Sequence record: PX104378.1 | Origin: a phage | DNA: 64,000 bases | Direction: 5' to 3' (one strand) | Part shown: positions 13,204 through 22,876 of the stretch, one piece after another | How positions within the stretch are numbered: position 1 is the stretch's first letter | How the letters are laid out: each line of letters opens with the position of its first letter | Notes under the pieces: model-generated | Seen by the model: the letters and a program-made list of their open reading frames with translations, nothing else | What the model was told of the DNA's origin: nothing | Databases searched by the model: none | Translations under genes and position numbers: made by a program

Positions 13204-13211
13204 TTTTATTT

Positions 13212-13240
13212 GGGAATCCTTCGGGATTCCCTTTTCTTTT
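13212..13240 (+). terminator. Intrinsic terminator before gp24 late promoter
   Basis: GGGAATCC-TTCG-GGATTCCC hairpin followed by T-run. Confidence 0.7.
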
Positions 13241-13242
13241 TG

Positions 13243-13250
13243 TATAAATA
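13243..13250 (+). promoter_or_regulatory. Late promoter (TATAAATA) for gp24
   Basis: Exact TATAAATA between terminator and gp24 ATG. Confidence 0.65.
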
Positions 13251-13287
13251 TGATATATCCATTAAGGCAAATACAGGATTCATAAAC

Positions 13288-14529
13288 ATGACTCATATTT
13301 TTACTGAACTGTTGCGGGAATCTACTTCCTCAGTAGCTAACCAGACAGCGCGACCGCAACTATTATCATTAACTCGCGCGGTAAACAACCTGATTTTCTC
13401 TGATCTGGTAGCAATCCAGCCAACGGATCAACCAGTATCTGCATTGTACGGCCTACGTTATCTTAATCATGATGGTCAGATGACTTTCCGAACTGCTGCA
13501 ACCTACGGTGGCGCGGTTGGTGATCGCACAGAGATCGAAGAGTTTTCAAAAGAAAAATCTTATGAAGAAGGCGCACTGTTCAAATCAGGCGATGTTGTAT
13601 ACGAAGTTGTGACCGCTGGTACAGTCGGTGAAGATGCCGCAACTCCAGAAGCTGCGATCTTTAAAGGCGTAATGACAAACAAAATTCGTTTCTATAGCGA
13701 TTGTGCATCGGTAGAATACTTTGAAGATAAAAACACCGAAATTGCGTCTACCTCTATGCAGTTTGACAAGTGGCAAGTTAATGTAGGTTCTCGTAAACTG
13801 AAAACCTCTTTCACCACTGAATTAATGCAGGATCTTGAAGCAAGCCAAATCAACTCTGAAAACTCTGTAATTGATCTTCTGGCTACTGTCGCTTCCGAAG
13901 AGATCAACAAAGATATTATACAGAAGTTGATCACTGTATCATCTCGCTATAAAATTAAAGGGATCACCCCTGATGGCGTACTTTCTCTCGTTAGCGTTCA
14001 GGATGCACCAAAACAAGCTCGCGAACTTTACCGCTATGCTTGCGAAATGAGCAATCAAATGTTGCGGACTTCCTCCTTTGCTGGCACATACGTTTTGGCG
14101 TCTTCTCGCGTGGTTGGCCTCCTGCAATCCACCGGATGGATGGAAGAAACCGACAACGCTCTAAGCGAAGGTCGTCTACGTTGCGGTCTGGAAGTGTATG
14201 CAGACACTGTAACACCTTTCGATTATATGCTCGTTGGTTGTAAGCACATGATCGGTGATATGGAGAGTGTAGGTTCTCTGTTCTACTCCCCATACACAGA
14301 AGCCGATGGTGCTGGCGCGTATAAGAGCGTAATTGACCCTAATAGTTTCCAACATCATGTGGCTATTATGAATCGTTATTCACTCTCTGTCAACCCATAC
14401 ACATCAAAAGTTGATCAGGAAGCACACCAGATCATCAAGGGTGACGATTGGGGTAAAATGGCTGGACGTTCAGAAATGTCCTACATTTTAGGAATCGAAC
14501 TGCCACCGCTTGAGATTGACAACGCTTAA
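13288..14529 (+). CDS. 24: Capsid vertex protein (gp24-like)
   Basis: Start trimmed to ATG (MTHIF) downstream of terminator and TATAAATA; N-terminus colinear with T4 gp24 as recalled (ELLRESTxx ... IQPT.QPV). Confidence 0.92.
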   Translation: MTHIFTELLRESTSSVANQTARPQLLSLTRAVNNLIFSDLVAIQPTDQPVSALYGLRYLNHDGQMTFRTAATYGGAVGDRTEIEEFSKEKSYEEGALFKSGDVVYEVVTAGTVGEDAATPEAAIFKGVMTNKIRFYSDCASVEYFEDKNTEIASTSMQFDKWQVNVGSRKLKTSFTTELMQDLEASQINSENSVIDLLATVASEEINKDIIQKLITVSSRYKIKGITPDGVLSLVSVQDAPKQARELYRYACEMSNQMLRTSSFAGTYVLASSRVVGLLQSTGWMEETDNALSEGRLRCGLEVYADTVTPFDYMLVGCKHMIGDMESVGSLFYSPYTEADGAGAYKSVIDPNSFQHHVAIMNRYSLSVNPYTSKVDQEAHQIIKGDDWGKMAGRSEMSYILGIELPPLEIDNA

Positions 14530-15117
14530 CTAAATATCTAACCAAGACAAGTCAGATCCGCCCAAGATTTTTTCGACGGCGGATCTATTTTCTTGATGAT
14601 ATAAGTTAAAACATGGTATCCCATGTCTACGGGCAACATAAACAGCAATTCGAGTTCCTCCAGAAACAATCCCATTAACTTCTTTCGCCCAAAATAACAC
14701 ACAATCTACAGGATCATCAAGTGTCTCACCTAAGACTTGAGCAACATTTCTAGAAAACAGATTTTGCATGTATAACGGTATAGAACGAGGATTATCATAA
14801 ACGTGTTCTAATTCATCCATCGCCAGATCTTTTTGTTCTAAGGTTTGCCATGCGATCACATCATGACCGTTATGCTTGTGGTCATAAAACTTCCAATTTG
14901 GAATGAAGATTTTTCTATAATCTGGATCGTAATACTTCATGAAAGCATTGTCCATACCGTAAGCCCCTCCAGAATGCGCTACAACGCGATTTTCTGACAA
15001 TACCCTCCCAATGGTACTAGCCATTATCAAAATGTCGCTAGGCGCTTTTCTAGAGCCTATTAAAGCACATCTACGAAGTGGTTTTACTCCAAATAGATCT
15101 TGTAACTGGTCAAACAT
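14530..15117 (-). CDS. Rossmann-fold DprA/Smf/LOG-like (SLOG superfamily-like) protein
   Basis: 195 aa; GSRKAPS ... VVAHSGGAYGMDNAF resembles the DprA/SLOG nucleotide-binding motif; family assignment from motif only. Confidence 0.55.
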   Translation of the reverse strand: MFDQLQDLFGVKPLRRCALIGSRKAPSDILIMASTIGRVLSENRVVAHSGGAYGMDNAFMKYYDPDYRKIFIPNWKFYDHKHNGHDVIAWQTLEQKDLAMDELEHVYDNPRSIPLYMQNLFSRNVAQVLGETLDDPVDCVLFWAKEVNGIVSGGTRIAVYVARRHGIPCFNLYHQENRSAVEKILGGSDLSWLDI

Positions 15118-16014: not shown

Positions 16015-16290
16015 TTAGGACATTGCCCGTTTGAATGCGTCCATTATAACAGTGTTATTTGGCTTGTCAACACGTTTTTGAACTTTATTTTTAAATTTTT
16101 TGTTGATGTGGTGTTTACGATAAACAACCTTTTCACGGTTGGCGTAAGCCTCTCGTGCATCTTTTACCATCAACCATGCCTTAGCCGCATCTTGTCCGCT
16201 GATCCCGCCAATCTTTTTAGCAATATCAACAAAATTAAGACCGTGGTCTTCGCGTAGCATGTAAACCATTAACGCTGTTTTCTTGTCCAT
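16015..16290 (-). CDS. Hypothetical basic protein, possible helix-turn-helix
   Basis: Start trimmed to ATG (MDKKTAL); its ATG overlaps the stop of the upstream 65-aa gene by 1 nt. Confidence 0.5.
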   Translation of the reverse strand: MDKKTALMVYMLREDHGLNFVDIAKKIGGISGQDAAKAWLMVKDAREAYANREKVVYRKHHINKKFKNKVQKRVDKPNNTVIMDAFKRAMS

Positions 16291-16487
16291 CACTTCGCCC
16301 CATTGACGATTAACAGGATAGTGATCAGTACCGGAAACTGGATCATGACAGTACCAATAAACCGGATAAACGCATTTTCTGACTTCCACACATGACATGC
16401 GACTAGCTGATAGACCATTGTTGCAACCAAAGCCAGAAAATACATCTCGATTGGTGCTTCTTTGATCAATCGTACAATCTCATTCAT
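16290..16487 (-). CDS. Small membrane protein (two hydrophobic segments)
   Basis: 65 aa; ATG with SD GAGGTGA; downstream of a TTGACA/TATAAT promoter. Confidence 0.55.
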   Translation of the reverse strand: MNEIVRLIKEAPIEMYFLALVATMVYQLVACHVWKSENAFIRFIGTVMIQFPVLITILLIVNGAK

Positions 16488-16607
16488 ACTTCACCTCATA
16501 CATTCATAAACACAACAACGAATAGGACAGTAACAGTTATTAAAGCCATTTTCAACCCCATATTCATAATATTTTCCTCATACGGTAACACCCTGTTGTT
16601 GTGTGCC

Positions 16608-16635
16608 ATTATAAGCCACTAAATCACACTGTCAA
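16608..16635 (-). promoter_or_regulatory. Sigma70-like early promoter (TTGACA-N16-TATAAT)
   Basis: Minus strand TTGACA ... TATAAT upstream of the 16290..16487 gene; coords +/-2. Confidence 0.5.
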
Positions 16636-16644
16636 GCACTAAAA

Positions 16645-16672
16645 ACAAAAAAGCCACCCCGAAGGATGGCTG
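16645..16672 (-). terminator. Intrinsic terminator after hoc
   Basis: Minus-strand hairpin GCCATCC-TTCG-GGGTGGC followed by TTTTTTG. Confidence 0.55.
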
Positions 16673-16682
16673 ATAGATTTCA

Positions 16683-17909
16683 TTAAGCAGGAGGCGTTTC
16701 ACGAATGCGTAGAACTCTCTCTAACGTCTCTCGGTCCAGCTTGTGGAACTCTTTGGACTGATACATGAAACCATTGCGAGATTCCATGCAAGTGCAATCA
16801 CTATATTTTTCTTCCGCTGCCGCGATTGTCTCCAGATCTTTGGCGTACTTGCTGGTTGAATAAACTTCTCGGTGACGCCACTCTAAACCAGCCTCATTGA
16901 ATTTAACAATCTCGTCAAATACCCACCATCCAATATAGATGAATGAAGTTTTGCGCCACGGGATCGGGTGCACGTAACGGAACATTTTATGAAGAGATTC
17001 AACAACTTCCATTGAACACTTTCTGCTTGTACGTGCTGCAAGTTCTACTGTTGCGTCTTCGATCTGTTGATATAGTTTAGCAACACACCAGAATTTGGCT
17101 GTATCATCGTAAGTAGCACGCTCTTTGAACAGATGACCGTCTGGCATGATAGAAAATCCTTCCAGTGCTTCTCCGACCTCACTACCGATTAGAGTCGGTG
17201 ACGGTTGCCCTTCGCGCTGCAAATACCAGTTATGTTTGATCGACAATTTAGGCATACCGCTAGAATCGCCTACAATGTCCTCTGACACAACATAATTAAG
17301 TAAGATCTCCTTACCTAGTGCTACGGTCTTTGATTCCACCACATCCTGTTCTACGCTCATTGTTGCCAGCATGATTTTAGTTGATGCGCTATCGGCTGAA
17401 TCTTCCGATTCGCCCCATACTTTGACAGTATACACGCCGTTGTTATCTGCTGTAAATTCTTGGATCGTGATATCCTGTGTCGTGTCTATAACTTCTTCGC
17501 CCTTGCTCCAGCTATAGTGCAATTCATAGTTGTCTGCTGGAGTCTTCCCACCAGAAAATTTTACTGTTGCATGTAATTCTACGTCTGTTTGTGTTGGTAC
17601 GTAGAATTGCGGCGGTTCGGTGATCTTAACGATTAATTCAGCTTCTTCCATACGGAAAACGTCAGATTCTACAGATTCCCCGCTATCGGTATCTTGTACA
17701 GTGACTTTATAGTTACCCGCATTTTCACTTGTTGCACCTGCTACGGTTAGCGTAGCTGTGTTATTTTCGTGTGGTTTGTTGTCTTTTGTCCATGTATAGG
17801 TCAAATTGCTGGGTAATGGTTCGTCACCTGCTATAGTCGCTGTTAAGGTGAAACCATCTCCAGCAAGAAAACATCTTTTGTTAGATTTAATTGATACTGT
17901 GAAAGCCAT
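16683..17909 (-). CDS. hoc: Hoc-like outer capsid protein, Ig-like repeats plus capsid-binding C-terminal domain
   Basis: Start set at MAFTV (T4 Hoc begins M.FTV); C-terminal YVHPIPWRKTSFIYIGWWVFDEI matches T4 Hoc capsid-binding region as recalled. Confidence 0.85.
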   Translation of the reverse strand: MAFTVSIKSNKRCFLAGDGFTLTATIAGDEPLPSNLTYTWTKDNKPHENNTATLTVAGATSENAGNYKVTVQDTDSGESVESDVFRMEEAELIVKITEPPQFYVPTQTDVELHATVKFSGGKTPADNYELHYSWSKGEEVIDTTQDITIQEFTADNNGVYTVKVWGESEDSADSASTKIMLATMSVEQDVVESKTVALGKEILLNYVVSEDIVGDSSGMPKLSIKHNWYLQREGQPSPTLIGSEVGEALEGFSIMPDGHLFKERATYDDTAKFWCVAKLYQQIEDATVELAARTSRKCSMEVVESLHKMFRYVHPIPWRKTSFIYIGWWVFDEIVKFNEAGLEWRHREVYSTSKYAKDLETIAAAEEKYSDCTCMESRNGFMYQSKEFHKLDRETLERVLRIRETPPA

Positions 17910-17922
17910 ATAAAGCCACTCC

Positions 17923-17948
17923 ATAGAAAAGCCGACCCGAAGGTCGGC
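17923..17948 (-). terminator. Intrinsic terminator after the large Hoc paralog
   Basis: Minus-strand hairpin GCCGACC-TTCG-GGTCGGC followed by T-run. Confidence 0.6.
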
Positions 17949-17958
17949 ATTTAATTAA

Positions 17959-20499
17959 TTAAAATAGTTGAGTACCATCGACCAGATAACCATTACGAGA
18001 TTCCAATACATGAGTATTAGAATAGTGATGCAACGAGGCTGCAATAGTCTCGATCTCGTCTGGGTATTTGGTGTGTTCAAAGTCTTCTAACCAGTTAAGC
18101 CCTTCGCGGTTGCAACGATCAATTTCATCAAGTACCCAATAGCCTTGATACTGGAACGAAGTACGACGCCACGGAATCGGGTGTACATAGCGTTTTAATT
18201 TCGCGGTAGTAAACACCACACGAACTTTTTCACTATGTTTAACATGTCCTTCGTCGTCAGTAATTTCTGCATAATAGGTTGCTTGATGTGCATTCTTGCT
18301 AATTCGATCTTGCGGGATAGTATATACCCTATCATTAGCACCTTCAATAACAGTATCCTTACCGCCCTGAATTTTATGCCATTTCCATTGAACTTCTTTT
18401 TCATCATCAACGTGTTCGGCATGAGCTTCTAAGGTAATATCCTGTTTCTGCCCTTCTTTAGCAACCACATCCACCGGATGTTTCAGAATATTGATATTTG
18501 AATGATGAGTCATTGTCACTAATGCAGGATTAGATTCAATGGTATTCTCACCAGCCGTAATTACCGCTGTGTAGCTGCCTACGTCAGACGGTTTTGCGTG
18601 TTCAATGATCAATACATCTGAATTTGCGCCAGGAATAATCTCACCGTCTTTTTTCCATTGATATGATGGTTTAATACCAATAGATGTTTGTGCGGCAGCG
18701 TGTAACATAATTTTTTCATTATATTTCACATGCGCATCTTGTGGGTGAGTTGTGACCTCTAGGTCATTTGGAACAACCGTCACATCGTCGGAGATCAGCA
18801 CACGAACAGCATCCGACATTTTAGAAACTCGATGTTCACCGAATCCAGCCGATACACGGCATGTATAAACGCCAGTAGATGTTAATTGTGCATGGTCTTC
18901 GCCATATACGTTTCGTTGTTCAATTCCTGCCGGGAAAAGATCCACACCATCTTTAAACCAACGGTAGCGAACTGGCAAAGCATCATTAGACGTTGCTGTG
19001 ATGGTCAGCGCCCACTGTCCACCTGAACGAACTTTAACTGCTTTCGGTTGCACAGTGATTTCAAGATTTGCTCTTGAGTTGTCTACCGTCACCTGAACTT
19101 CGTTAGATTCCTTAGAAATACGATGATTCTGTATACCCATAGAAACCTTACATTTATAACGTCCTTCGTCAGATTTGGCGATTGAAGAGAAATGTAATGT
19201 TTTCGAAGTTTTTCCTGGTAACAATTCATCGTCTTTATACCACTGATAATCAAGTTTATAATGCTCATAGGTAGTTTCTGCCTCACAAATTAAAGTTTGT
19301 GAAGAACTAACGCGAACGTTATTGATTGCTTGTGGTTGTTTTGTGATTCTAATTTCAGGAGCGGCACCAACTAAAAGATCGGCCTCGTCCGATTCCGCAA
19401 CCTGATTATCACCGTAAGTCACCTTAGCCTTATATTTCGCCTGACTTAAATCTTGCGTGGCAGGGACAATGTGAAGATCTTTATTAGTTGCGCCAACAAT
19501 TGGTTTAAATTCATCTTCACCATTTTTCTTGATGTACCATTGAACTTTTACCGGTTCGTAGTTGGTTGCAAAATCAACACTGAACAAACCTAAAGCACCC
19601 GCACCCACATTTAACGGTTGTGGTTGTTTAGTGAAGCGGAAAAACGCTCGTCCTTGTATTGTAACATGACAATCTTTTGAATAGATCGTAGTTTCTGCTT
19701 GACGAACTTCAAGACGCCAGACACCCTCATCTTTTTTTGTAACATGCGGTATAATCAGTGCGGTCCCGTCTTGATCCAGTACCATCCTGTCATTATGAAT
19801 CCACACGTAAGACAATGGTCGCGTTTTGTCGTCGGTTGTGACAGACACTTCAAGATCCAATCGCGTGTCCTCTGCCACTGTAACCGCTGATGGGTAATGT
19901 TCCTGAATATGAACTTTAGGAGCATCTTTATTTTGTTCCACTACTACCGGACTGATCCAATAGTGAGAACGTGCATCATCGGTAACAAATACCTTACAAG
20001 TATAGTTACCAAAATCCTCATAACCAACTCGATCTACATGGACATTTTTTTCTCTAACTTTATTAGGATCTAACTGAATATGGTTTTTATACCAAATAGT
20101 ATCAAACTCTTTATCATCTTCGATGAACGGAGTAACAAAAATATCCAATTCTTCGCCTAAACGCTTATAAATGTAGGTAGGAGATTGATCATGTGGTGCA
20201 AGGAAGGTGCGACGTTCAACAAGAATAGGCTTAATATCAACCGATTCAAGCGGATTATCTTTCAGCTTAACTTTCGCTGTATATGTTCCGAATTGATCTT
20301 GAGTCATTTCAGCAATATACAGAGATTGATCTGGTTCTGCAACCTGATCTGATGGTACGCTTTGACCGTTTAGCTTCCATTCTACGATATAGTCTTTAAA
20401 ATCTGCGGTACTTACTACGAGCTTAAGAACAAGTTCATGTCCTACAGACGCGTAGACCGGACCCATAGTTTGATGTAAAATATTGATTTTATCAGACAT
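17959..20499 (-). CDS. Large Hoc paralog (846 aa) with about eight Ig-like repeats and Hoc capsid-binding C-terminus
   Basis: Repeated ~90-aa units with W..Y/C-x-A motifs; C-terminus YVHPIPWRRTSFQYQGYWVLDEI paralogous to adjacent hoc. Confidence 0.8.
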   Translation of the reverse strand: MSDKINILHQTMGPVYASVGHELVLKLVVSTADFKDYIVEWKLNGQSVPSDQVAEPDQSLYIAEMTQDQFGTYTAKVKLKDNPLESVDIKPILVERRTFLAPHDQSPTYIYKRLGEELDIFVTPFIEDDKEFDTIWYKNHIQLDPNKVREKNVHVDRVGYEDFGNYTCKVFVTDDARSHYWISPVVVEQNKDAPKVHIQEHYPSAVTVAEDTRLDLEVSVTTDDKTRPLSYVWIHNDRMVLDQDGTALIIPHVTKKDEGVWRLEVRQAETTIYSKDCHVTIQGRAFFRFTKQPQPLNVGAGALGLFSVDFATNYEPVKVQWYIKKNGEDEFKPIVGATNKDLHIVPATQDLSQAKYKAKVTYGDNQVAESDEADLLVGAAPEIRITKQPQAINNVRVSSSQTLICEAETTYEHYKLDYQWYKDDELLPGKTSKTLHFSSIAKSDEGRYKCKVSMGIQNHRISKESNEVQVTVDNSRANLEITVQPKAVKVRSGGQWALTITATSNDALPVRYRWFKDGVDLFPAGIEQRNVYGEDHAQLTSTGVYTCRVSAGFGEHRVSKMSDAVRVLISDDVTVVPNDLEVTTHPQDAHVKYNEKIMLHAAAQTSIGIKPSYQWKKDGEIIPGANSDVLIIEHAKPSDVGSYTAVITAGENTIESNPALVTMTHHSNINILKHPVDVVAKEGQKQDITLEAHAEHVDDEKEVQWKWHKIQGGKDTVIEGANDRVYTIPQDRISKNAHQATYYAEITDDEGHVKHSEKVRVVFTTAKLKRYVHPIPWRRTSFQYQGYWVLDEIDRCNREGLNWLEDFEHTKYPDEIETIAASLHHYSNTHVLESRNGYLVDGTQLF

Positions 20500-20577
20500 G
20501 TAATATCCTCTTTTTTAATTGCATAACGGAACTACAATTAAAAACATAACAAATATTTCACAACTTTTACACTCTTA

Positions 20578-21303
20578 TTATTTAAGAGTGTGGAATTGGC
20601 TGTGTTTAGTCTCTCTCACCTTGACAGACCCATCGCGTTTGATATAATAGATCAGTGACTTGAGGGTGTCGTGTACATACGCGTGCGGGAAACGCTCTGG
20701 GTACTTCTTCCAATCTGGGGTATTAACGATCCAGTCGAAAATCCACCACGGGCAGGAGTAGTAACCACGACCGCCACCGATCAAGCAAATGGTCGGACGG
20801 AAACCAGTAAGATCACAAAATGAATCAGTGTCATGTGCTGGGGAACGATGCTCTGCTTCGTCAGAGAAAATGTTGGCTACCGGAGATTCCACTTTAACTT
20901 CCGGTGCTTCTTCAACATCTGACTTAACTTCTTCGACCACTGATTCAACTGCCGGAGATTCTTCTTTTGTTTCTTCAATGACGATCTCAGGTTCTTTCAT
21001 TGCTTCAACCAGAGACGGATCAACTTCGTCGAATACCACTTTATCATCTGCGGTATCTGCTGCCAGAATAAGATCGTTAATACTGGTTCCTTCTGCCGGA
21101 GTTTCTTCTTCCATTTCGGAAGCCAGTTTAGTTAATTCGGTTTCTACGAACTCGATCATGTTCTCTAGTGATAGCGTCTTTTTGACCTTGATATCAAATT
21201 GTTTTGCGTAGTCAGCTAATTCTGTTTTAGCTGTTTTCTGTGCTTCTTTGTCGTCGGACGCCGCAATAGCGCGGAGTTCTTCGAAATATTCTTTATCAAA
21301 CAT
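20578..21303 (-). CDS. Acidic hypothetical protein (position of T4 inh region)
   Basis: 241 aa; E-rich central region, Cys/Trp-rich C-terminus; ATG with SD AGGAGA. Confidence 0.6.
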   Translation of the reverse strand: MFDKEYFEELRAIAASDDKEAQKTAKTELADYAKQFDIKVKKTLSLENMIEFVETELTKLASEMEEETPAEGTSINDLILAADTADDKVVFDEVDPSLVEAMKEPEIVIEETKEESPAVESVVEEVKSDVEEAPEVKVESPVANIFSDEAEHRSPAHDTDSFCDLTGFRPTICLIGGGRGYYSCPWWIFDWIVNTPDWKKYPERFPHAYVHDTLKSLIYYIKRDGSVKVRETKHSQFHTLK

Positions 21304-21329
21304 GTTATTCTCCTGATTGGGGGTGTTTG

Positions 21330-21337
21330 TATAAATA
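21330..21337 (+). promoter_or_regulatory. Late promoter (TATAAATA) for uvsW
   Basis: Exact TATAAATA about 35 bp upstream of uvsW ATG. Confidence 0.55.
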
Positions 21338-21373
21338 TTTGTATACTGTATTTATTGAGTGAGGCTATTCGCT

Positions 21374-22876
21374 ATGCAAGATATTAAAATTCACTTTCTG
21401 AACTACTCCCATGTTCAAATTGAATGTAGCGATTCAATTTTATTAGAAATGCGAGATTATTTTAGTTTTGAAGTCGAGGGAGCGCGGTTTCAAAAGCGAG
21501 TAAAATACGGCGGCTGGGATGGGCGTATTCGTCTTTTAGATTACAATGGAAAGTTGCCAATCGGCCTAACTAAAACCGTGGGAATCTTCGCTAAAAATAT
21601 GGGCTATAGCGTATGGGTAGACCCTCGCTTATTCGAAAAAGAACAAGTTACAGAAGAAGAAATTACAAAATGGTGTAATGATCTGGAATTATATTCCGGT
21701 GCTAACAGGATCACCCCGCATTGGTATCAATCAAAGGCTGTCTTTGAAGGTATTCATCATAAACGCCGTATGTTAGTTTTGCCTACGTCCGCTGGTAAAT
21801 CTGCGATTGCTTGTATGTTGTCTCGTTGGTACTTAGAGAACTACGAAGGGAAAGTGCTGATCATCGTTCCTACCACGTCGCTAGTGCTGCAAATGCGTGA
21901 TGATTTTGTTGATTATCGCCAGTTTCCTTATGAAGCAATTCATACTATCATGAGCGGTACTAGTAAACACGTAGGTGATCGCCTGATCGTTGTTAGTACG
22001 TGGCAATCGGCATGTAAACAGCCTCGTGAGTGGTTCCAACAATTCGGGATGGTTATTGTTGACGAATGTCACAAGGCCACTGCTAAAAACCTGCTAAACA
22101 TCGTTACTGACATGGATCATTGCCAATTTAAGATCGGCATGACTGGTTCCCCTCGTGACGGGAAAGCTAACATGATGCAGTATGTCGGGCTTTTCGGTGA
22201 TATTTCTAAGATCGTGAGTATTGACCGCCTGATGGAAGAAGGGCAGGTGACAAAACTGAAAATTAACTGTCTTTTCCTTCGTTATACCGATGAGGAATGT
22301 AGCGCGGTTAAGGGGCGAGAATATGCGGAAGAGATCAAGTATATTACATCTAACCCACGACGAAATAAGTTTGCTTGTAATTTGGCGCTAAAACTCGCTA
22401 AGAAGGGCGAAAACGTATTCCTTATGTTCCGCAATACTAAGCACGGAAAACTTATGTATGACGCGTTACAGAAGGTACACGACAAGGTTTATTATATTGA
22501 CGGTGGAGTTAAGACAGAAGAACGTGATGAATTTAAGAAAATGGCGGAGGGTGACACCGGGATCATTTGTGTTGCGTCTTATGGTGTGTTCTCTACTGGT
22601 GTTTCAATTAAGAATTTGCATCATGTTATTTTCGGTCATCCAGTGAAGGAATCAACTATCGTTCGTCAGAGTATCGGTCGTGCATTGCGTAAACATGGTT
22701 CTAAAGACATTGCAACGGTCTGGGATCTTATCGATCATTTGGCGGTTAAGACAAAGAGCAAGAATGCTAAGAAACAGTTTAGCCACCTTAATTATGCTCT
22801 TAAACATGCCCTTGAAAGAATAAAAATTTACAACACCGATCGCTTCGAATATGTAACGAAAACTATCGAGATTTAA
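21374..22876 (+). CDS. uvsW: UvsW helicase (SF2)
   Basis: Start trimmed to ATG (MQDIKIHF); near-colinear with T4 UvsW as recalled (GRIRLLDYNGKLP, LPTSAGKS, VDECH, GKANMMQYVG, KIYNTDRFEYVTKTI). Confidence 0.95.
   Translation: MQDIKIHFLNYSHVQIECSDSILLEMRDYFSFEVEGARFQKRVKYGGWDGRIRLLDYNGKLPIGLTKTVGIFAKNMGYSVWVDPRLFEKEQVTEEEITKWCNDLELYSGANRITPHWYQSKAVFEGIHHKRRMLVLPTSAGKSAIACMLSRWYLENYEGKVLIIVPTTSLVLQMRDDFVDYRQFPYEAIHTIMSGTSKHVGDRLIVVSTWQSACKQPREWFQQFGMVIVDECHKATAKNLLNIVTDMDHCQFKIGMTGSPRDGKANMMQYVGLFGDISKIVSIDRLMEEGQVTKLKINCLFLRYTDEECSAVKGREYAEEIKYITSNPRRNKFACNLALKLAKKGENVFLMFRNTKHGKLMYDALQKVHDKVYYIDGGVKTEERDEFKKMAEGDTGIICVASYGVFSTGVSIKNLHHVIFGHPVKESTIVRQSIGRALRKHGSKDIATVWDLIDHLAVKTKSKNAKKQFSHLNYALKHALERIKIYNTDRFEYVTKTIEI

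What the first reader, a model, noticed from the sequence alone, without database searches (positions are those of the whole stretch)
16683..20499. Tandem Hoc paralogs, one expanded to about eight Ig-like domains
Two adjacent genes both end with the Hoc capsid-binding domain (YVHPIPWR.TSF.Y.G.WV.DEI ... ESRNG). The first resembles canonical Hoc (408 aa); the second is 846 aa with roughly eight Ig-like repeats. Two capsid-anchored Ig arrays of different length could compete for the same capsid site or project adhesins to different distances.
Basis: partly seen in the sequence, partly recalled or inferred. Interest (0 to 1): 0.55.

Follow-up and report, generated by a model that had tools for sequence, protein, structure and literature searches.

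The report
Two Hoc capsid-fibre genes in tandem
This RB49-like (T4-type) phage carries two adjacent genes for capsid-decorating fibres, one with three and one with eight immunoglobulin-like domains; the arrangement is real and has been published for other phages, and the new point is that the model phage RB49 and most of its relatives are natural deletion mutants that keep only a stump of the long gene.

Summary
On the minus strand lie a 408-aa Hoc (16683-17909; its three Ig domains match the RB49 Hoc crystal structure 3SHS, E 5e-178) and an 846-aa Hoc (17959-20499). The long one has eight Ig-like domains plus the T4-Hoc capsid-binding domain.

The window is a Krischvirus (RB49-like). The same pair is in six of 59 public Krischvirus records, and JK32 already annotates both genes as Hoc. 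It is also in a distant metagenomic relative. Both genes are under purifying selection (dN/dS about 0.1). The long protein keeps 841-847 aa across 13 clusters down to 59% identity, so it is not a pseudogene.

New here:
- 53 of 59 records, including RB49, JSE and Phi1, hold an out-of-frame stump made of the first and last codons of the long gene. One large deletion was followed by a 75-bp one.
- These stump ORFs make up two PHROG "unknown function" families.
- A conserved GC hairpin between the genes is lost wherever the long gene is lost.

Two-Hoc phages (Muldoon, PG7) were published in 2023. Muldoon has the same inh-long-hairpin-short layout but arose by an independent duplication. The verdict is a new member of a known kind. 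Sharing of one capsid site is inferred, not shown.

The parts
20578..21303 (-). inh (inhibitor of the prohead protease), the gene just upstream of the long hoc and probably the first gene of the same late transcription unit
   Evidence: PHROG phrog_1051, E 6.8e-77. Annotated as inh in JK32 and JSE. In the distant relative L011 only 12 nt separate inh from the long hoc.
17959..20499 (-). Long hoc paralog: 846 aa, pI 5.65, 96 kDa, preceded by a strong Shine-Dalgarno sequence (AAGAGGA)
   Evidence: dN/dS is 0.10-0.13 against JK32, UPWr_E1 and G2248. Thirteen homologous clusters are all 841-847 aa long.
18205..20499 (-). Array of eight Ig-like domains in the long Hoc. Residues 1-97, 98-191, 192-284, 285-380, 381-476, 477-571, 572-665 and 666-765 correspond to nt 20499-20209, 20208-19927, 19926-19648, 19647-19360, 19359-19072, 19071-18787, 18786-18505 and 18504-18205.
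   Evidence: AlphaFold secondary structure, a conserved Trp about every 95 residues (residues 41 and 321 by eye), Foldseek. Domains 4-7 are the most alike (Z 15-22), which points to internal duplication.
17962..18204 (-). Capsid-binding domain of the long Hoc (residues 766-846; RYVHPIPWRRTSFQYQGYWVLDEI...ESRNGYLVDGTQLF)
   Evidence: Matches T4 Hoc residues 292-366 in PDB 5vf3_Z. It is 90-100% conserved among the intact lineages compared, while the Ig domains fall to 52-75% in the divergent ones.
17925..17958 (-). Intergenic GC hairpin, GCCGACC-TTCG-GGTCGGC (17948..17931), followed by TTTTCT. It abuts the GGAG ribosome-binding site of the short hoc and looks like an intrinsic terminator or attenuator.
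   Evidence: It is present with compensatory stem changes in JK32, UPWr_E1, G2248 and metagenome L011, and absent from RB49, JSE, Phi1 and ECD7. The equivalent hairpin is annotated as a terminator in G2248 and Muldoon.
16683..17909 (-). Short (canonical) hoc: 408 aa, pI 4.86. Three Ig-like domains (residues 1-303, nt 17909-17001) plus the capsid-binding domain with a C-terminal tail (residues 304-408, nt 17000-16686).
   Evidence: PDB 3SHS (RB49 Hoc domains 1-3), E 5e-178; T4 Hoc C-domain, E 6e-11. phrog_1149. dN/dS 0.06-0.28.
16652..16671 (-). Terminator-like hairpin (AGCCATCC-TTCG-GGGTGGCT, then TTTTTTG) that closes the hoc unit
   Evidence: The equivalent site is annotated as a terminator in G2248.

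Best explanation
Both genes encode working Hoc-type capsid decoration fibres. Each has the same kind of C-terminal anchor that, in T4, seats one Hoc at the centre of each major-capsid-protein hexamer. The short protein carries three Ig-like domains. By analogy with the 18-nm T4 fibre, I estimate the eight-domain protein at about twice that length (roughly 40 nm).

The pair came from an old duplication inside the Krischvirus lineage, and the long gene then grew by internal duplication of Ig domains. The genes sit in the order inh, long hoc, short hoc. A GC hairpin with a T-run lies directly against the ribosome-binding site of the short gene, so any transcript reaching the short gene must read through it. 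The hairpin therefore most likely sets the long:short mRNA ratio.

The two proteins most likely share the roughly 155 hexamer sites of the capsid. That would give a two-tier coat of variable Ig adhesins on a conserved anchor.

The long gene is dispensable in the laboratory. RB49, JSE, Phi1 and most isolates lost it in one roughly 2.3-kb internal deletion, followed in RB49 and JSE by a 75-bp deletion between CAGAA repeats. They also lost the hairpin.

What is shown: the gene structures, the homology, purifying selection, the deletion history and the conservation of the hairpin. What is inferred: virion incorporation of both proteins, sharing of one site, attenuation by the hairpin, and adhesin function.
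For: - Homology of both C-termini to the T4 Hoc capsid-binding domain. The aromatic contact positions are kept: T4 W306/W309/W310 align with Y/Y/W in the long protein and Y/W/W in the short one. Fokine 2023 names these tryptophans as contacts.
- Eight Ig domains.
- Purifying selection on both genes (dN/dS 0.06-0.28).
- Length held at 841-847 aa in 13 clusters down to 59% identity.
- Tandem order conserved in six isolate records and in a 59%-identical metagenomic relative.
- C-domain tree: long clade 200/200, short clade 200/200.
- Remnants holding both gene ends in 53 of 59 records, with nested junctions.
- Hairpin with covarying stems in all five intact lineages and none in the remnant lineages.
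- Only 12 nt between inh and the long hoc in L011, so they are co-transcribed there.
- RB49 Hoc binds T4 capsids in vitro, so the anchor works across genera (PMC10385173).
Against: - There are no proteomic, cryo-EM or transcript data for any two-Hoc Krischvirus. The papers on JK32, SSG23 and Brandy49 do not mention Hoc.
- No canonical late promoter (TATAAATA) lies on the minus strand upstream of inh or either hoc. Only one-mismatch octamers are found.
- The AlphaFold model of the long C-domain has low confidence (pLDDT below 50 over 765-788 and 820-846).
- Each paralog's contact motif differs from the other's and is nearly invariant within its own clade (FQYQGYWV against FIYIGWWVF). The two could therefore prefer different sites or have very different affinities.
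- In UPWr_E1 the hairpin lacks a good T-run, so it may stabilise the RNA rather than terminate.
Confidence: 0.75

Rival explanations
1. The two paralogs do not compete. Their paralog-specific anchors direct them to different subsets of capsomers (for example vertex-proximal hexamers against the rest) or to different structures, which would give a patterned coat.
For: The anchor motifs differ consistently between the paralogs, and each is nearly invariant within its own clade. The long anchor is more conserved (90% between the window and L011) than the short one (69%). The short protein has a conserved tail of about 20 residues after ESRNG that the long one lacks. T4 Hoc itself behaves differently on vertex-proximal hexamers (PMC10385173).
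Against: Both anchors keep the same fold signature and aromatic contact positions as T4 Hoc. In T4 all hexamer centres accept the same Hoc. RB49-like phages that lost the long gene show no sign of a compensating change in the short anchor (93% identical, dN/dS 0.05).
Confidence: 0.15
2. The long gene is a decaying or unexpressed relic, and only the short Hoc decorates the capsid.
For: Most sequenced Krischvirus isolates lost the gene without apparent harm. A terminator-like hairpin separates it from the short gene. No canonical late promoter was found.
Against: The 846-codon frame is intact. dN/dS is 0.10-0.13 with synonymous sites saturated against the divergent alleles. Length is conserved in 13 clusters down to 59% identity. 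It has a strong ribosome-binding site and sits first in the unit. Real decay looks different, as the frameshifted stumps in RB49 and Phi1 show.
Confidence: 0.05
3. The long gene was acquired recently by horizontal transfer from another phage group and is not a paralog of the resident hoc.
For: The hoc region is a recombination hot spot: between the window and UPWr_E1, inh is 99% identical while both hoc genes are about 68%. The Ig domains of the long protein resemble bacterial and other phage Ig repeats more than those of the short Hoc.
Against: The nearest relatives of the long anchor in the phage collection are the Krischvirus short anchors (49%), ahead of all other genera. Together with Slopekvirus they separate from the T4-type Hocs at 195/200. 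The remnant in RB49-type phages and the tandem in a 59%-identical relative show that the gene is old in this lineage.
Confidence: 0.05

Closest known systems
Shigella phage JK32 (MK962753) genes JK32_00169 and JK32_00170, with the same pair in Brandy49, SSG23, SFHK24, UPWr_E1 and G2248
   Same: Same genus, same order inh / 846-aa gene / 408-aa gene, 93-95% nucleotide identity for JK32, Brandy and SSG23. JK32 annotates both as 'head outer capsid protein'.
   Different: The window is a distinct strain (best match Brandy, 94.7%). UPWr_E1 and G2248 carry very divergent alleles of both Ig arrays (68-71% aa) with near-identical anchors. None of the papers read on JK32, SSG23 or Brandy49 discusses the pair.
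Serratia phage Muldoon two-Hoc pair (1174 aa with 10 Ig domains, plus 314 aa with 2 Ig domains), described by Fokine et al. 2023 (PMC10385173)
   Same: Same layout: inh, long hoc, GC hairpin with a TTCG loop and a T-run abutting GGAG, short hoc, terminator. A long and a short Ig string sit on the same kind of anchor.
   Different: The duplication was independent. The two Muldoon anchors are 75% identical and sister to each other (145/200), lie among the T4-type anchors, and never group with the Krischvirus paralog of the same length class (0/200). The Krischvirus pair is much older (48% identical anchors).
RB49 Hoc (PDB 3SHS) and T4 Hoc (PDB 5vf3 chain Z; 8t1x)
   Same: The short gene is the ortholog of RB49 Hoc (E 5e-178 over domains 1-3; 91% aa identity over the whole protein). 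Both paralogs share the T4 anchor domain (37% identity).
   Different: T4 and RB49 each have a single Hoc. RB49 has one only because its long gene was deleted, leaving a stump annotated as hypothetical ORFs.
Enterobacter phage PG7 Hoc-like pair (233 aa; and 511 aa with an N-terminal anchor fused to a GDSL lipase) and VR7 hoc plus ORF197w
   Same: More than one protein carrying the Hoc anchor in a single T4-type genome.
   Different: Different cargo (a lipase), anchor position or gene orientation. VR7 ORF197w is convergent to hoc and has only 272 aa.

Membership tests
Hoc (highly immunogenic outer capsid protein) family of T4-type phages | C-terminal capsid-binding domain homologous to T4 Hoc residues about 281-376 | tested here: met
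   Both proteins match PDB 5vf3_Z residues 291/292-363/366 (domain E 6e-11 short, 3.9e-10 long). Both match phrog_1149, phrog_14282 and phrog_11091, 'Hoc-like head decoration'.
Hoc (highly immunogenic outer capsid protein) family of T4-type phages | N-terminal linear string of Ig-like domains | tested here: met
   Short: three domains matching 3SHS. Long: eight domains by Pfam Ig_3, Ig_2 and I-set, the AlphaFold model and Foldseek.
Hoc (highly immunogenic outer capsid protein) family of T4-type phages | Location in the gene 24 ... hoc - inh - uvsW block of a T4-type genome | tested here: met
   gp24 at 13210-14529, inh at 20578-21303 and uvsW at 21359-22876 flank the pair.
Hoc (highly immunogenic outer capsid protein) family of T4-type phages | Acidic protein (pI about 4-5, per Fokine 2023) | tested here: inconclusive
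   The short protein has pI 4.86 and fits. The long protein has pI 5.65, which is acidic but above the published range.
Hoc (highly immunogenic outer capsid protein) family of T4-type phages | One monomer bound at the centre of each major-capsid-protein hexamer of the mature capsid | not testable with these tools
   Needs virion proteomics, an in-vitro binding assay or cryo-EM. Only conservation of the contact motif could be shown.
Hoc (highly immunogenic outer capsid protein) family of T4-type phages | Non-essential for plaque formation | tested here: met
   For the long paralog, 53 of 59 Krischvirus records, all from plaque-forming isolates, carry only a frameshifted stump. This was not tested for the short paralog.
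Two-Hoc phages (Muldoon and PG7 type, Fokine et al. 2023) | Two ORFs with the Hoc anchor in one genome, one of them greatly expanded | tested here: met
   Exactly two anchors in the window, on proteins of 846 and 408 aa.
Two-Hoc phages (Muldoon and PG7 type, Fokine et al. 2023) | Common descent of the pair from the Muldoon pair (orthology of long with long and short with short) | tested here: not met
   Neighbour-joining tree of the anchors: Muldoon long and short are sisters (145/200), and groupings by length class occur in 0/200 replicates. The layout is the same but arose independently.

The most novel reading that the evidence does not exclude
The two anchors, each nearly invariant within its own paralog clade but differing from the other at capsid-contact positions, might partition the 155 hexamer sites or bind with set affinities. 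The intergenic hairpin would then tune dosage, so the phage would build a defined two-tier coat of Ig fibres rather than a random mix. Loss of the long gene in the RB49 lineage would have selected for loss of the hairpin, raising short-Hoc supply to fill the vacated sites. A further possibility is that the outer tier contributes to the broad host range of Brandy49, which does not depend on O-antigen recognition and whose mechanism is unexplained (PMC9569957).
Probability: 0.15. Interest if true: 0.6.

Novelty: new member of a known kind. Interest (0 to 1): 0.4.

Why it matters
Hoc is the main display platform of T4 nanoparticle vaccines. It is also the central protein in the model of phage adherence to mucus. 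RB49 Hoc is the only Hoc whose Ig domains have been solved by crystallography.

This analysis shows that RB49 is a natural deletion mutant of a two-Hoc ancestor. Close relatives with the long gene (Brandy49, JK32) and without it (Cognac49, Whisky49, RB49) already exist in culture. That gives a ready-made, near-isogenic system for asking what a second, longer Ig fibre does, for example in adsorption, mucus or surface binding, aggregation and immunogenicity. The same system can test how two proteins share one capsid site.

The work also corrects annotation. Two PHROG "unknown function" families, and the small hypothetical ORFs between hoc and inh in dozens of genomes, are fragments of a pseudogene.

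The independent appearance of the same long-hairpin-short layout in Muldoon suggests the arrangement is favoured by selection rather than accidental.

Tried and rejected
- I searched for a canonical T4 late promoter (TATAAATA) on the minus strand upstream of inh, the long hoc or the short hoc. None was found, only one-mismatch octamers at 21336-21343 and 21349-21356, so the promoter remains unidentified.
- The sigma-70 scan over 16300-21500 found no more sites than shuffled sequence does (12 against 13.7). It cannot assign a promoter to either hoc gene.
- BLASTP of the long protein against itself found no internal repeats. The domains are too diverged. Smith-Waterman scores judged against shuffles were needed.
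- The first C-domain tree left out the Muldoon short protein because my motif pattern missed YIHELP. The bootstrap numbers for Muldoon are therefore invalid, and the tree was redone.
- The supplements of Fokine 2023 held here do not list the 650 homologs. I could not tell whether the Krischvirus 846-aa protein was in their set.
- The papers on JK32, SSG23 and Brandy49 contain nothing on Hoc and no virion proteomics for these phages.
- I rejected the pseudogene and recent-transfer readings, for the reasons given under the rival explanations.
- Not tried: the Foldseek 'viral' and AFDB libraries, a second structure prediction of the anchor alone, and the large representative-protein search. None would change the verdict.
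Full report
**What is there**

The window is a T4-type phage of the genus Krischvirus (RB49-like). Megablast of 16400-20600 finds 59 phage records, all Krischvirus, with Enterobacteria phage Brandy the best at 94.7%.

The minus strand carries, in transcription order:
- inh (20578-21303);
- an 846-codon ORF (17959-20499);
- a 34-nt spacer;
- a 408-codon ORF (16683-17909, start MAFTV);
- a terminator-like hairpin.

gp24 lies on one side and uvsW on the other. The 413-aa ORF listed mechanically begins five codons too early. The RB49 crystal construct, the JK32 annotation and UPWr_E1 (which has only the second ATG) all fix the start at 17909.

**Checking the observation**

The short protein is the ortholog of RB49 Hoc. 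Residues 1-303 match PDB 3SHS at E = 5e-178.

Both proteins end in the capsid-binding domain of T4 Hoc (PDB 5vf3 chain Z, residues about 291-366). The domain E-values are 6e-11 for the short protein and 3.9e-10 for the long one. The two proteins align with each other at E = 3e-23. Exactly two copies of this domain exist in the 64-kb window.

The long protein has eight Ig-like domains:
- A conserved Trp recurs at residues 41, 136, 233, 321, 420, 514, 615 and 707 (six by the motif search; 41 and 321 by eye).
- The AlphaFold model, built on a 14-sequence alignment (mean pLDDT 79.6), shows eight beta-sandwich blocks followed by a helical C-domain of low confidence.
- Pfam Ig_3, Ig_2 and I-set match strongly.
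- Foldseek's best matches are contactin, Robo, the eight-Ig DSCAM fragment and titin.

**Is the long gene functional?**

The evidence says yes. Against JK32, UPWr_E1 and G2248 its dN/dS is 0.10-0.13, with synonymous sites saturated against the two divergent alleles. In the 5.8-billion-protein collection it has 13 cluster representatives from 92% down to 59% identity, all 841-847 aa long. The most distant of these (P0013, a 153-kb metagenomic contig) has the same order: inh, then 841 aa, then 395 aa.

Both hoc genes form a hypervariable cassette on conserved anchors. Between the window and UPWr_E1, inh is 99% identical, the two hoc genes are 67-68% identical, and their anchor domains are 95-96% identical.

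**Origin of the pair**

A neighbour-joining tree of the anchor domains puts all long anchors in one clade and all short anchors in another, each at 200/200. Together with Slopekvirus KP15 they are set apart from the T4-type anchors at 195/200. That the long and short clades are each other's sisters is only weakly supported (104/200). The anchors are 48% identical, so the duplication is old.

Within the long gene, domains 4-7 resemble each other strongly (Z 15-22) and domains 1-2 do so moderately (Z 13). The short protein's Ig domains are only faintly similar to any of them (Z at most 7). The array therefore grew by internal duplication after the genes separated.

**RB49-type phages are deletion mutants (the main new result)**

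In JSE the 265 nt between hoc and inh hold the first 11 codons of the long gene joined to its last 39 or so codons. The join is out of frame, and the result is annotated as a 29-aa hypothetical protein.

A blastn survey with this stump gives 53 of 59 records with the stump and six with the intact gene: Brandy, JK32, SSG23, SFHK24, UPWr_E1 and G2248. Some records are duplicate entries for one phage.

Junction mapping shows two nested states:
- Phi1, ECD7, GEC-3S, MIZ4/5, Makalu and G37-3 keep window positions 20499 to about 20394 joined to about 18088-17959.
- RB49, JSE and the rest have the same 3' junction but a further 75-bp loss between two CAGAA repeats.

This means one large deletion of about 2.3 kb, then a second small one. 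The stump ORFs are what PHROGs files as phrog_19377 (54 aa) and phrog_32100 (65 aa), both marked "unknown function". The long protein matches them at residues 1-34 and 809-846.

**The intergenic hairpin**

Between the stop of the long gene and the GGAG ribosome-binding site of the short gene lies GCCGACC-TTCG-GGTCGGC followed by TTTTCT.

All five intact lineages have a hairpin here with a TTCG loop and different, compensating stems. All four remnant lineages examined lack it.

No room is left for a promoter between the hairpin and the short gene. I therefore infer that the short hoc depends on read-through and that the hairpin sets the mRNA ratio. It could instead be only an RNA-stabilising element: in UPWr_E1 the T-run is poor. 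GC-stem hairpins with a UUCG loop are, from my own knowledge, common in T4 intercistronic regions, so the type of hairpin is generic.

No canonical late promoter was found on this strand.

**Comparison with what is known**

Fokine et al. 2023 (PMC10385173) report three relevant points:
- Hoc homologs keep a conserved anchor and variable Ig strings.
- Serratia phage Muldoon has a 1174-aa Hoc with 10 Ig domains and a second Hoc of 314 aa.
- Enterobacter phage PG7 has two Hoc-like proteins.

The Muldoon record shows the same layout as here: inh, terminator, long hoc, terminator, short hoc. Its spacer reads GGGCC-TTCG-GGCCC-TTTT-GGAG...ATG.

Even so, the two Muldoon anchors are 75% identical. They are sisters (145/200), lie among the T4-type anchors, and never pair with the Krischvirus paralog of like length (0/200). 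The layout therefore arose at least twice.

A tblastn of the anchor finds 1601 places in 1344 phage records. Records with two places occur in Krischvirus, Slopekvirus, Gaprivervirus (VR7) and Karamvirus. JK32's GenBank record already names both genes "head outer capsid protein". The papers on JK32, SSG23 and Brandy49 say nothing about Hoc.

**Mechanism and its limits**

Both anchors keep aromatic residues at the positions of T4 W306, W309 and W310. Fokine 2023 describes these as part of the capsid contact. RB49 Hoc binds T4 capsids in vitro.

The most likely picture is that both proteins occupy hexamer centres and share the roughly 155 sites, giving fibres of two lengths. The T4 fibre is 18 nm. 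My figure of about 40 nm for eight domains is an estimate, not a measurement.

The contact motifs are paralog-specific and nearly invariant within each clade. Site partitioning or unequal affinity therefore cannot be excluded. Virion incorporation, stoichiometry and adhesin function are untested.

**Verdict**

The kind of system is already known and is already annotated in one close relative, so this is a new member of a known kind.

The added value lies in three things: the evolutionary history (an ancestral tandem, stepwise decay in the RB49 lineage, and a convergent layout in Muldoon), the annotation correction, and a natural near-isogenic system for experiments. Interest is moderate (0.4).

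Noticed in passing
window 20621-20648 (+): A perfect sigma-70 promoter (TTGACA, 16 nt, TATAAT, with TG before the -10) lies inside the 3' end of inh on the opposite strand. It points back through inh towards uvsW and could give an early antisense transcript over this late-gene block.
   Followed up: no
window 16608-16635 (-): A second perfect sigma-70 promoter (TTGACA, 16 nt, TATAAT) lies just downstream of the terminator of the short hoc. It presumably drives early transcription of the small ORFs 16290-16487 and 16015-16398 (DUF2774, similar to gp24.3).
   Followed up: no
L002 4100-4189 (JSE EpJSE_00174), L007 1611-1775 (Phi1 ORF168.1), L008 1487-1684 (RB49p168.2), L009 1611-1775 (ECD7_00169): These annotated hypothetical proteins are reading frames across the stump of the deleted long hoc. 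PHROG families phrog_19377 and phrog_32100, both 'unknown function', match the ends of the long gene that these stumps retain.
   Followed up: yes
L005 4014-6243 (phage VR7): VR7 has a 272-aa protein with the Hoc anchor (ORF197w), convergent to its canonical hoc. It is preceded by a 427-aa protein with collagen triple-helix repeats. This is another variant of a second anchor-bearing gene at the hoc locus.
   Followed up: partly
L004 4835-6784 (phage KP15): The hoc region of KP15 is annotated as several short ORFs: a 177-aa 'Hoc head outer capsid protein', then a 91-aa 'Hoc large outer capsid protein' that holds the anchor. This looks like a gene split by frameshifts or sequencing errors, and the record has a second anchor match elsewhere.
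   Followed up: no
window 14530-15117 (-): A 195-aa ORF next to gp24 has a weak match, below the Pfam cutoff, to the DprA/Smf recombination-mediator domain (PF02481, E 8e-5). A similar gene in phage fGh-Ecl01 is annotated as similar to 'DNA recombination-mediator protein A'.
   Followed up: no
window 13210-14529 (+): The gp24 ORF as listed starts at a TTG, and the late-promoter octamer TATAAATA lies inside it at 13243-13250. The real start is probably the ATG 26 codons downstream (MTHIF...), which gives the 413 aa annotated in JK32.
   Followed up: partly
literature: Brandy49 (MZ504876), the closest relative of the window: [quoted passage not shown] RB49, Cognac49 and Whisky49, which have only the stump, do not behave this way (PMC9569957). 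Brandy49 also has a divergent gp38, so the link to Hoc is only a coincidence worth testing.
   Followed up: no
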